Shown: positions 54,347 through 56,447 of the stretch, one piece after another
Layout: each line of letters starts with the position of its first letter
How positions within the stretch are numbered: position 1 is the first letter of the stretch
Assembly: GCF_056746865.1 (NCBI RefSeq)
Contig: NZ_CM163382.1
Length of the DNA: 64,000 nt
Reading direction: 5' to 3' (one strand)
Made by a program: the position numbers and the translations under genes
The notes under the pieces: generated by a model
Databases searched by the model: none
The model's input: the letters and a program-made list of their open reading frames with translations, nothing else
Told to the model about the DNA's origin: nothing

Positions 54347-54410
54347 TGTGTCGTCCGTATTGCCGATTTAATATTGAGCATTGCGTAAAAAAAATATCAC
54401 TGGATACATT

Positions 54411-56447
54411 ATGGTACCCTCAACATTTTCTCGTTTGAAAGCCGCGCGTTGTCTGCCTGTTGTTCTGGCAGCCCTGATTTTCGCCGGTTGTGGCACCCAT
54501 ACTCCCGATCAGTCCACTGCTTATATGCAGGGCACGGCGCAGGCTGATTCTGCCTTTTACCTGCAACAGATGCAGCAAAGTTCTGATGATACCAGGATCA
54601 ACTGGCAATTACTCGCCATTCGTGCACTGGTGAAAGAAGGTAAAACCGGACAGGCGGTGGAGTTGTTTAACCAACTACCGCAAGAACTGAACGATTCTCA
54701 GCGTCGCGAGAAAACACTGCTGGCGGCAGAGATTAAACTGGCGCAGAAAGATTTTGCTGGCGCGCAAAACTTGCTGGCGAAAATCACACCTGCAGATTTA
54801 GAACAAAACCAGCAAGCGCGTTACTGGCAGGCAAAAATCGATGCCAGCCAGGGGCGTCCTTCCATTGATTTACTGCGCGCGTTAATTGCTCAGGAACCGC
54901 TGCTCGGTGCGAAAGAAAAGCAGCAGAATATTGACGCCACCTGGCAGGCGCTCTCCTCCATGACTCAGGAACAGGCGAATACGCTGGTGATCAATGCCGA
55001 CGAAAATATTCTGCAAGGCTGGCTGGATCTGCAGCGCGTCTGGTTTGATAACCGTAACGATCCCGACATGATGAAAGCCGGGATCGCCGACTGGCAGAAA
55101 CGTTATCCGAACAACCCGGGCGCGAAAATGCTGCCAACGCAGTTGGTTAACGTAAAAGCGTTTAAACCCGCATCGACCAACAAAATCGCCCTGATGTTGC
55201 CACTGAATGGCCAGGCAGCGGTATTTGGTCGCACTATTCAGCAAGGCTTTGAAGCGGCGAAAAATATCGGCACTCAGCCAGTGGCGGCTCAGGTAGCTGC
55301 CGCACCTGCCGCAGACGTAGCAGAACAACCTCAGCCGCAAACCGTGGATGGCGTTGCCAGCCCGGCACAAGCCTCGGTTAGCGATCTGACCGGTGAACAA
55401 CCTGCGGCCCAGCCGGTGCCTGTAAGCGCCCCGGCGGCAACCACCGCAGCGGTAAGCGCACCCGCGAATCCATCCGCAGAGCTGAAAATCTACGATACAT
55501 CATCACAACCACTTAGCCAGATCTTAAGCCAGGTTCAACAGGATGGCGCGAGTATTGTGGTCGGTCCGTTGCTGAAAAATAACGTTGAAGAGTTGCTGAA
55601 GAGCAACACCCCGCTGAACGTGCTGGCACTGAACCAGCCGGAGAACATCGAAAACCGCGTCAATATTTGTTACTTCGCGCTTTCACCGGAAGACGAAGCG
55701 CGCGATGCAGCGCGTCATATTCGTGACCAGGGTAAACAAGCGCCGCTGGTGCTGATCCCACGCAGTTCATTGGGCGATCGCGTAGCCAATGCGTTTGCGC
55801 AAGAGTGGCAGAAACTGGGTGGCGGCACCGTTCTGCAACAAAAATTTGGTTCCACCAGCGAATTACGCGCGGGTGTTAACGGCGGTTCTGGTATTGCTTT
55901 AACGGGTAGCCCGATTACTCCCAGAGCGACAACCGACTCCGGCATGACGACCAACAATCCAACGCTGCAAACCACGCCAACCGATGACCAGTTCACCAAT
56001 AATGGCGGTCGTGTCGATGCGGTGTACATTGTGGCAACGCCGGGTGAAATCGCTTTTATCAAACCGATGATCGCCATGCGTAACGGCAGTCACAGCGGTG
56101 CGACGCTGTACGCCAGCTCCCGCAGTGCGCAAGGGACCGCTGGCCCGGATTTCCGCCTGGAGATGGAAGGCTTGCAGTACAGCGAAATCCCGATGCTGGC
56201 AGGCGGTAATCTGCCGTTAATGCAGCAGGCGCTCAGCGCGGTGAACAACGATTATTCGCTGGCTCGCATGTATGCGATGGGCGTTGATGCCTGGTCGTTG
56301 GCAAATCATTTCTCACAAATGCGCCAGGTTCAGGGTTTTGAAATCAACGGTAATACCGGAAGTCTGACGGCTAACCCGGATTGCGTGATTAACAGGAAGT
56401 TATCATGGCTACAGTACCAACAAGGTCAGGTAGTCCCCGCCAGTTAA
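54411..56447 (+). CDS. lpoA: Outer-membrane lipoprotein LpoA, activator of PBP1A
   Basis: ORF track 54381..56447; start at [14 protein letters not shown]...AGCG (lipobox; 678 aa); TPR N-domain and Ala/Pro/Gln-rich linker. Confidence 0.92.

What the first reader, a model, noticed from the sequence alone, without database searches (positions are those of the whole stretch)
55260..55500. Low-complexity Ala/Pro/Gln-rich linker inside LpoA
The LpoA ORF contains a stretch (…[68 protein letters not shown]…) that looks intrinsically disordered and sits between the N-terminal TPR domain and the C-terminal domain. Such linkers vary in length between strains and could tune the reach of LpoA across the periplasm.
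Basis: seen in the sequence. Interest (0 to 1): 0.2.

Follow-up and report, generated by a model that had tools for sequence, protein, structure and literature searches.

The report
Known disordered loop inside LpoA
The Ala/Pro/Gln-rich stretch is real and disordered, but it is the already published "flexible region 1" of E. coli LpoA: a floppy surface loop inserted inside the C-terminal domain, not a linker between the two domains, so it cannot set how far LpoA reaches across the periplasm.

Summary
Window 55260-55500 encodes LpoA residues 284-364, and the quoted peptide is exact. Residues 285-351 are strongly biased (A 28%, P 15%, V 13%, Q 12%, no K/R); 0 of 5000 shuffles reach that bias.

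The TPR-like domain ends near residue 249. The true junction (K249-K258) is 10 residues long in all 109 Enterobacteriaceae sequences examined, is confidently modelled, and is reported rigid by NMR. The stretch lies about 30 residues inside the C-terminal LppC (periplasmic-binding-protein-like) domain, between helix α1 (270-286) and strand β2 (357-362). Both ends are pinned side by side, so it cannot lengthen the molecule.

Jean et al. 2014 (PMC4111904) already described it as "region 1" (N285-P351): flexible by NMR, absent from H. influenzae LpoA, function unknown.

- **Across the family:** the loop is 3-11 residues in 83 of 106 representatives and 14-102 in the rest.
- **Within Enterobacteriaceae:** it is 62-142 residues.
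- **Within E. coli:** length is nearly fixed. Of 5,424 complete genomes, I found 11 with a 3-residue deletion and 1 with a 10-residue repeat expansion.

One small addition: a conserved island (V-x-S-P-x-x-A-x-V-S-D-L-T, residues 315-327) sits in the otherwise hypervariable loop.

Verdict: ordinary and already known.

The parts
54411..56447 (+). lpoA coding sequence (678 aa plus stop), outer-membrane lipoprotein activator of PBP1A
   Evidence: ORF. The ATG at 54411 matches the RefSeq lpoA CDS length in E. coli C600, N96 and RMDEC465. Pfam LppC PF04348, E = 4.3e-135. PDB 2MHK and 6DR3 match at 99% identity.
54411..54491 (+). Signal peptide ending in the lipobox cysteine C27 (…LIFAG-C)
   Evidence: Sequence. 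C27 is invariant in the 104-sequence alignment.
54492..55154 (+). N-terminal TPR-like all-helical domain (residues 28-248)
   Evidence: phmmer match to 2MHK (query 27-256) and 6DR3 (31-252). All-helical in the AF2 model, last helix 243-249.
55155..55184 (+). True interdomain junction K249-K258, short and rigid
   Evidence: Defined and shown rigid by NMR in PMC4111904. The 10-residue blocks covering it (241-260) have mean pLDDT 94 and 92. The segment is 10 residues in 82 of 106 representatives and in 109 of 109 Enterobacteriaceae sequences.
55182..55268 (+). First strand and helix of the C-terminal domain (β1 258-263, α1 270-286), upstream of the low-complexity stretch
   Evidence: DSSP on the AF2 model. 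Aligns to the first residues of the H. influenzae C-domain crystal 3CKM (query 257-291 to chain 3-37). Mean column conservation 0.99 in Enterobacteriaceae.
55263..55463 (+). Region 1 (N285-P351): disordered Ala/Pro/Val/Gln-rich, acidic loop inserted between α1 and β2. This is the core of the finding.
   Evidence: Composition and shuffle test. pLDDT below 50 and coil. Absent from H. influenzae LpoA. Published as flexible region 1. GC 66% against 53% for the rest of the gene.
55299..55307 (+). Site of a natural 9-nt (3-residue, A297-P299) deletion allele
   Evidence: 11 complete E. coli genomes match a deletion-bearing query without a gap. Strain 4621 has a 675-aa LpoA lacking residues 297-299.
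55353..55391 (+). Conserved island V315-T327 ([13 protein letters not shown]) at the middle of the loop
   Evidence: The columns V, S, P, A, D, L, T are at least 90% conserved in 109 Enterobacteriaceae sequences, while the flanks are 0.56-0.61. Variants are present in two more distant insert-bearing relatives, and nothing recognisable further out.
55422..55479 (+). Imperfect 30-nt tandem repeat (1.9 copies; [10 protein letters not shown] / [10 protein letters not shown])
   Evidence: TRF, 79% matches; the repeat finder family D1. Expanded to 3 copies in E. coli AST85, giving a 688-aa LpoA. AST85 is the only one of 5,424 genomes with this expansion.
55479..55496 (+). Strand β2 (357-362, LKIYDT), where the ordered C-terminal domain resumes
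   Evidence: AF2 DSSP. The alignment to H. influenzae LpoA resumes at query residue 352. D362 is nearly invariant.
55887..56003 (+). Region 2 (S493-N531): second Thr/Asn/Pro-rich flexible insertion in the same domain
   Evidence: Gap in the alignment to H. influenzae LpoA (query 473-529). pLDDT below 50 at 510-521. Composition. Published as flexible region 2.

Best explanation
The stretch is the published 'flexible region 1' of E. coli LpoA. It is a lineage-specific, intrinsically disordered expansion of a surface loop, the α1-β2 connection in the first lobe of the C-terminal LppC (type I periplasmic-binding-protein-like) domain.

**Shown**
- In most LpoA homologues this connection is a tight turn of 3-11 residues.
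- In Enterobacteriaceae and some relatives it has grown to tens of residues, and up to 142.
- It is always poor in hydrophobic and basic residues and net acidic.
- Because both ends are held together by the fold, it forms a floppy loop. It does not change the length of the rigid TPR-plus-C-domain rod that spans the periplasm.
- It grows and shrinks by tandem duplication or slippage of short low-complexity units. Examples are the 30-nt unit in E. coli, the AQ, AQPA and TQPT units in Enterobacter, and a 31-residue duplication in one relative.
- It is under weaker purifying selection than the folded parts (pN/pS 0.09-0.31 against 0.04-0.06).

**Inferred**
- Most of the loop is tolerated spacer whose only physical effect is flexible acidic bulk on the domain surface.
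- The one part likely to have a sequence-specific role is the conserved central island VxSPxxAxVSDLT.
- The core activator function (binding and stimulating PBP1A) does not need the loop, because orthologues such as H. influenzae LpoA lack it.
For: **Position in the fold**
- AF2 secondary structure and pLDDT.
- phmmer alignment to H. influenzae full-length LpoA 5KCN and C-domain 3CKM, which breaks at query 291/352.
- Foldseek: 5VAT TM-score (target-normalised) 0.79-0.81; 3CKM 0.89; LivJ/LivK-type binding proteins follow.

**Disorder**
- Composition and pLDDT.
- NMR assignment of flexible residues within N285-P351, and IUPred above 0.5 (PMC4111904).

**Lineage specificity**
- The loop is 3-11 residues in 83 of 106 family representatives and 14-102 in the other 23.
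- It is 62-142 residues in Enterobacteriaceae, while region 2 stays almost always 61-62 and the junction stays 10.

**Repeat-driven indels**
-.

**Selection and variation**
- Relaxed but non-neutral selection.
- Near-fixed length in E. coli.

**Alternatives excluded**
- No RNA family.
- No family for the antisense ORF.
Against: - No function has been demonstrated for the loop. Jean et al. state that it is unknown.
- The conserved island and pN/pS well below 1 show the loop is not simply neutral filler, so 'mostly tolerated spacer' may understate its role.
- The near-fixed 71-residue length across 5,424 E. coli genomes could reflect selection on length. It could equally reflect the lack of perfect repeats in the E. 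coli DNA.
- I could not obtain model coordinates, so I did not determine where the loop emerges relative to the PBP1A-binding face.
- The natural large-deletion alleles are singletons from draft assemblies or metagenome-assembled genomes. By established knowledge lpoA is dispensable when PBP1B-LpoB is present, so those alleles do not prove dispensability.
Confidence: 0.9

Rival explanations
1. The stretch is the flexible linker between the TPR domain and the C-terminal domain, and its length sets how far LpoA reaches from the outer membrane towards PBP1A.
For: - The stretch is disordered and about 67 residues long.
- Its length differs between genera.
- LpoA must span the periplasm (PMC4111904).
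Against: - β1 and α1 of the C-terminal domain precede the stretch and β2 follows it.
- The real junction K249-K258 is short, well modelled, constant in length and rigid by NMR. The 145 Å length is explained by the two rigidly stacked domains.
- H. influenzae LpoA lacks the stretch yet has the same two-domain architecture.
Confidence: 0.03
2. A tethered short linear motif. The conserved island VxSPxxAxVSDLT (315-327) is a binding or fold-upon-binding element held on variable spacers. It captures a periplasmic partner, such as PBP1A, another synthase or hydrolase, or peptidoglycan. The low-complexity flanks only provide reach and flexibility.
For: - The island is at least 90% conserved at 7 positions across 109 Enterobacteriaceae sequences, although the flanks change in sequence and length from 62 to 142 residues.
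- Variants persist in two relatives at about 58-63% identity.
- In E. coli the island lies at the loop midpoint.
- pN/pS is below 1 in the region.
- Jean et al. raise possible folding on partner binding.
Against: - The island has the lowest pLDDT of the protein (blocks 311-330 are about 33-34), so there is no sign of docking onto LpoA itself.
- No recognisable island is found in insert-bearing homologues outside the Enterobacteriaceae-like group, such as Sodalis.
- Rare natural alleles delete it: P0006 and P0008 in E. coli and P0064 in Salmonella.
- In Enterobacter it is not central in the loop.
- No partner is known.
Confidence: 0.22
3. A contingency or VNTR-type locus. Repeat copy number in the stretch changes frequently between strains, generating functional or antigenic diversity of LpoA.
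For: - An imperfect 30-nt tandem repeat is present and is expanded in one genome.
- Short-unit copy-number differences occur between Enterobacter strains.
Against: - In E. coli only 12 of 5,424 complete genomes carry the length variants I could find.
- The repeat is only 79% matched and 1.9 copies.
- All changes are in frame and small.
- LpoA faces the periplasm, by established knowledge of outer-membrane lipoproteins of this type, so it is not an obvious target of diversifying selection.
Confidence: 0.03
4. The low-complexity stretch reflects something else encoded in the DNA, such as an antisense gene or a structured RNA, rather than a property of LpoA.
For: A 172-aa antisense ORF overlaps 54882-55400.
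Against: - The antisense ORF has no Pfam match (best E = 0.54).
- No Rfam family matches at E ≤ 1.
- GC-rich Ala/Pro codon runs commonly leave the opposite strand open.
- The + frame is conserved as protein across genera.
Confidence: 0.01

Closest known systems
'Region 1' (N285-P351) of E. coli LpoA, as described by Jean et al. 2014, Structure 22:1047 (PMC4111904)
   Same: It is the same residues in the same protein. That paper reports a 67-residue stretch absent from H. influenzae LpoA, flexible by NMR, IUPred above 0.5, located within the C-terminal domain, function unknown.
   Different: Nothing differs in kind. The window's allele differs from K-12 by two residues in the stretch (AT for TS at 345-346). 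Added here:
- a census of loop length across the family and within E. coli;
- the repeat-driven indels;
- the conserved island.
H. influenzae LpoA (PDB 5KCN, 5VAT, 5VBG, 3CKM)
   Same: The same two-domain architecture and fold: TM-score 0.79-0.81 for the full length and 0.89 for the C-domain. Flanking sequence is conserved on both sides of the loop.
   Different: It has only a short turn where E. coli has about 67 extra residues, and it also lacks most of region 2.
N-terminal disordered tether of LpoB, the PBP1B activator
   Same: Both are disordered, low-complexity segments in an outer-membrane lipoprotein activator of a class A PBP. (This comparison rests on established knowledge, not on a test here.)
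   Different: In LpoB the disordered segment lies between the lipid anchor and the globular domain, so it really does provide reach. The LpoA stretch is a closed loop within a domain and cannot.
Region 2 of the same protein (S493-N531)
   Same: A second lineage-specific flexible insertion in the same domain, also low in pLDDT and absent from H. influenzae.
   Different: - Thr/Asn-rich rather than Ala/Pro/Gln-rich.
- Almost constant in length, 61-62 residues, across Enterobacteriaceae.
- More conserved: 0.83 against 0.56-0.75.

Membership tests
LpoA / LppC family (PF04348) | Sequence match to the LppC family model above its curated cut-off | tested here: met
   451.9 bits against a cut-off of 28.8, E = 4.3e-135. 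RefSeq annotates the same gene as lpoA in 5,424 E. coli genomes.
LpoA / LppC family (PF04348) | Lipoprotein signal peptide with a lipobox cysteine | tested here: met
   …LIFAG-C27. C27 is invariant in 104 aligned homologues. No dedicated lipoprotein predictor was run.
LpoA / LppC family (PF04348) | N-terminal TPR-like helical domain followed by a type I periplasmic-binding-protein-like C-terminal domain | tested here: met
   2MHK and 6DR3 at 99% identity. AF2 model pLDDT 86. Foldseek hits to 5VAT, 3CKM and LivJ/LivK-type proteins.
LpoA / LppC family (PF04348) | Binds and stimulates PBP1A | not testable with these tools
   Known for E. coli LpoA from the literature. The window protein is 99% identical to the main E. 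coli cluster.
Interdomain linker | Lies between the last element of one domain and the first element of the next | tested here: not met
   β1 (258-263) and α1 (270-286) of the C-domain precede it and β2 (357-362) follows it. 3CKM, which is the C-domain only, aligns on both sides. The true linker is K249-K258.
Intrinsically disordered / low-complexity region | Compositional bias, depletion of order-promoting residues, no confident structure | tested here: met
   (0 of 5000 shuffles reach the bias; 3% bulky hydrophobic residues). (pLDDT below 50, coil). NMR and IUPred in PMC4111904.
Intrinsically disordered / low-complexity region | Fast sequence and length evolution relative to the folded flanks | tested here: met
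   - Column conservation 0.56-0.75 against 0.92-0.99.
- Length 62-142 in Enterobacteriaceae and 3-102 across the family.
- pN/pS 0.09-0.31 against 0.04-0.06.
Tethered short linear motif | A short conserved island within a variable disordered region | tested here: met
   VxSPxxAxVSDLT is at least 90% conserved at 7 positions in 109 Enterobacteriaceae sequences but is lost in more distant insert-bearing homologues.
Tethered short linear motif | An identified binding partner or induced structure | not testable with these tools
   Only single chains can be modelled here. The AF2 single-chain model gives no local confidence peak at the island.
Contingency / VNTR locus | Frequent copy-number change of tandem repeats between strains of a species | tested here: not met
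   In E. coli, 1 genome with a repeat expansion and 11 with a 9-nt deletion among 5,424. None lacks more than 40 nt. The feature is met in Enterobacter, where length varies between strains.

The most novel reading that the evidence does not exclude
The conserved island VxSPxxAxVSDLT (LpoA 315-327) is a functional short linear motif, presented at the apex of a variable-length acidic disordered loop. It recruits or senses a periplasmic partner specific to Enterobacteriaceae, for example part of PBP1A or another cell-wall enzyme. This would give the so far function-less 'region 1' a defined role.
Probability: 0.2. Interest if true: 0.4.

Novelty: already known. Interest (0 to 1): 0.1.

Why it matters
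It matters little for discovery. The stretch, its disorder, its absence from H. influenzae and its position inside the C-terminal domain were published in 2014.

The useful outcome is a correction. The stretch is not the interdomain linker and cannot tune LpoA's reach, so it should not be used as evidence for strain-specific 'ruler' tuning of peptidoglycan synthesis.

The modest additions could guide a simple deletion or mutation experiment on a region whose function is still unknown:
- the loop is an indel hot spot across the family;
- its length is almost fixed in E. coli but variable in Enterobacter;
- it contains one conserved island.

Tried and rejected
1. **Interdomain-linker reading.** Rejected on the fold topology and on published NMR.
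2. **Antisense gene or RNA element.** The antisense 172-aa ORF has no family, and there is no Rfam match at E ≤ 1.
3. **NCBIfam scan of LpoA.** No family returned, so uninformative.
4. **Later work assigning a function to region 1.** Three further full-text searches found none. Reading PMC8536351 and PMC8824477 also found none. The 2017 JBC paper on full-length H. influenzae LpoA is not held.
5. **Naming the organisms behind distant representatives by cluster look-up.** This gave few names: Sodalis, Limnobaculum and one 'Enterobacter kobei'. I ran no further search on a low-value question.
6. **Rare E. coli LpoA variants with large deletions as evidence of dispensability.** Such singletons also delete folded parts, for example 161-185 and 395-434. 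By established knowledge lpoA is non-essential when PBP1B-LpoB is present. They therefore prove little.
7. **Full census of small indels in all 5,424 genomes.** Not possible with 60 rows per search. I used two evenly spaced samples plus targeted queries built from known variant alleles.

Full report
**Observation.** The window carries a + strand ORF at 54381..56447. With the ATG at 54411 it gives a 678-aa protein, the length RefSeq annotates for lpoA in E. coli C600, N96 and RMDEC465. Nucleotides 55260-55500 encode residues 284-364, and the translation matches the quoted peptide exactly.

Residues 285-351 are A 28%, P 15%, V 13% and Q 12%, with no Lys or Arg, five acidic residues and 3% bulky hydrophobic residues, against 24.5% elsewhere. 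They include the lowest-entropy 40-residue windows of the protein. No shuffle out of 5000 reaches their A+P+Q content.

**Identity of the gene.**
- Pfam LppC matches at E = 4.3e-135.
- The E. coli LpoA N-domain structures 2MHK and 6DR3 match at 99% identity.
- 5,424 of 5,426 complete E. coli genomes carry the segment inside a gene annotated lpoA.
- The neighbours are rsmI (divergent, upstream) and yraN (downstream), as in the RefSeq records.

**Where the stretch sits.** This is the main correction.
- phmmer against solved structures aligns H. influenzae full-length LpoA (5KCN) in three blocks: query 37-291, 352-472 and 530-677.
- The crystal of the H. influenzae C-terminal domain alone (3CKM) already aligns to query 257-291 before the break.
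- An AlphaFold2 model built on a 104-sequence alignment (mean pLDDT 86, pTM 0.81) has the last TPR helix at 243-249. It then has β1 at 258-263, α1 at 270-286, coil over 287-356 (pLDDT below 50 at 295-299 and 301-345), β2 at 357-362 and α2 at 368-377.
- The model matches 5VAT at a target-normalised TM-score of 0.79-0.81 and 3CKM at 0.89, followed by LivJ/LivK-type binding proteins.

The stretch is therefore an expanded α1-β2 loop inside the first lobe of the C-terminal domain, about 30 residues downstream of the domain boundary. The real junction falls in blocks with mean pLDDT 92-94.

**Already published.** Jean et al. 2014 (PMC4111904) report the following:
- They name them region 1 (N285-P351) and region 2 (S493-N531).
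- They assign flexible NMR resonances to both and report IUPred above 0.5.
- They define the interdomain linker as K249-K258 and show that the two domains tumble together (a rigid connection).
- They explain the roughly 145 Å length by the stacked domains.
- They state that the function of the flexible regions is unknown.

Three further literature searches and two papers read found no later functional assignment.

**Comparative census across the family.** I aligned 106 full-length representatives, taken from a library clustered at 50% identity, and counted the residues between the anchors K284 and E356.
- E. coli has 71 residues.
- 83 representatives have 3-11.
- The other 23, mostly the closest relatives, have 14-102.
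- The interdomain segment is 10 residues in 82 of the 106.

**Comparative census within Enterobacteriaceae (109 sequences).**
- The loop ranges from 62 to 142 residues, with one 32-residue Salmonella singleton.
- By genus: Escherichia 71, Salmonella 74-76, Citrobacter 69-78, Pseudescherichia 87-100, Enterobacter and Lelliottia 102-123.
- Region 2 is almost always 61-62 residues, and the junction is always 10.
- Insert-bearing homologues are uniformly acidic and poor in basic residues. Most are also poor in hydrophobic residues. The dominant residues change between lineages, from A/P/Q/V here to T/S/N/D elsewhere.

**Variation within E. coli.**
- All 5,424 matching complete genomes cover at least 80% of the 201-nt region, so none has lost more than about 40 nt.
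- In two evenly spaced samples of 60 records each, 119 rows have identical length.
- The exception, strain AST85, has a 688-aa LpoA with three copies of VSAPAASTAA-type units instead of two. This is an expansion of the imperfect 30-nt repeat found at 55422-55479. A query built from that allele shows AST85 is the only such genome.
- A query built with a 9-nt deletion finds 11 genomes that match without a gap. One of them, strain 4621, encodes a 675-aa protein lacking residues 297-299.
- The broader protein collection holds singleton E. coli variants with larger in-frame deletions in the loop (Δ292-325, Δ292-331). It also holds singletons deleting folded segments, so these carry little weight.

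So the length is not strictly invariant, but about 99.8% of complete genomes share it. Other small-indel alleles could exist that I did not query for.

**Variation within Enterobacter.** By contrast, strains assigned to the same species differ in loop length through copy number of AQ, AQPA and TQPT units. One relative carries a 31-residue tandem duplication.

**Constraint.** Among four E. coli alleles, pN/pS in region 1 is 0.09-0.31, against 0.04-0.06 in the rest of the gene (counts are small). Selection is weaker there but not absent. Column conservation in Enterobacteriaceae is 0.61 and 0.56 in the two flanks of the loop and 0.75 in a central island. The island V315-x-S-P-x-x-A-x-V-S-D-L-T327 has seven positions at 90% or more. 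Recognisable variants occur in two relatives at about 58-63% identity, and none further out. The AF2 model gives the island no confidence peak.

**Interpretation.**
- *Shown.* The stretch is a disordered, lineage-specific loop expansion within the C-terminal domain. It changes length by duplication or slippage of short units. Its two ends are adjacent in the fold.
- *Follows from the above.* It cannot extend the N-to-C span of LpoA, so the 'reach' hypothesis fails.
- *Inferred.* Most of it is tolerated flexible acidic spacer. If any part has a specific role, it is the conserved island, possibly as a tethered binding element. I put that at about 0.2.

The core activator function does not need the loop, since orthologues without it exist. 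This argument is indirect.

**Alternatives checked.** The antisense 172-aa ORF has no family. No Rfam family matches.

**Verdict.** This is a correct sighting of an already described feature, with the wrong structural assignment and an unsupported functional idea. Interest is low.

Noticed in passing
window 55887-56003 (LpoA residues 493-531): A second, Thr/Asn/Pro-rich flexible insertion (published 'region 2'). Unlike region 1 it is nearly constant in length (61-62 residues) across Enterobacteriaceae. Two E. coli protein clusters (P0004, P0010) share a 16-residue deletion, 508-523, within it.
   Followed up: partly
window 55422-55479; locus L001 1260-1349: An imperfect 30-nt tandem repeat ([10 protein letters not shown] / [10 protein letters not shown]). 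E. coli AST85 carries a third copy, giving a 688-aa LpoA. It is the only such genome among 5,424.
   Followed up: yes
window 55299-55307; locus L005: Eleven complete E. coli genomes carry an in-frame 9-nt deletion (residues 297-299, 675-aa LpoA). I did not check whether they form one lineage.
   Followed up: partly
proteins P0074, P0096, P0107, P0116, P0085 and P0047: In Enterobacter and Lelliottia the same loop varies between strains through copy number of AQ, AQPA and TQPT units. P0047 has a 31-residue tandem duplication, giving a 142-residue loop.
   Followed up: partly
window 54381-54410: The mechanical ORF starts at a TTG ten codons upstream of the ATG used by RefSeq. The annotated 678-aa form begins at 54411.
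   Followed up: no
window 56405-56447: The yraN ORF starts 43 nt before the lpoA stop codon, in a different frame. The same overlap is annotated in the RefSeq records.
   Followed up: no
E. coli genome collection: Sixteen genomes carry a divergent lpoA allele lineage, 80-90% identical over region 1 and 90-95% over the 601-nt stretch (strains N96 and AST85 were the sampled members, at 91.3% and 87.6%). One record has an additional match on a plasmid. Two of 5,426 genomes have no match at all.
   Followed up: no
protein P0124: A 598-aa LpoA labelled Enterobacter kobei has only a 10-residue α1-β2 loop and a shortened region 2. It is 59% identical to the query, less than typical Enterobacter LpoA, so it may be a divergent lineage or a mislabelled source rather than a simple deletion.
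   Followed up: no
window 54882-55400, minus strand: A 172-aa antisense ORF overlaps lpoA, including the first two-thirds of region 1. It has no Pfam family (best E = 0.54) and is most likely a by-product of the GC-rich Ala/Pro codons.
   Followed up: yes
proteins P0003, P0009, P0015 and P0007: Singleton E. coli LpoA variants have in-frame deletions inside folded parts (for example 161-185, 395-434 and 202-277). They may be non-functional alleles or assembly artefacts.
   Followed up: no
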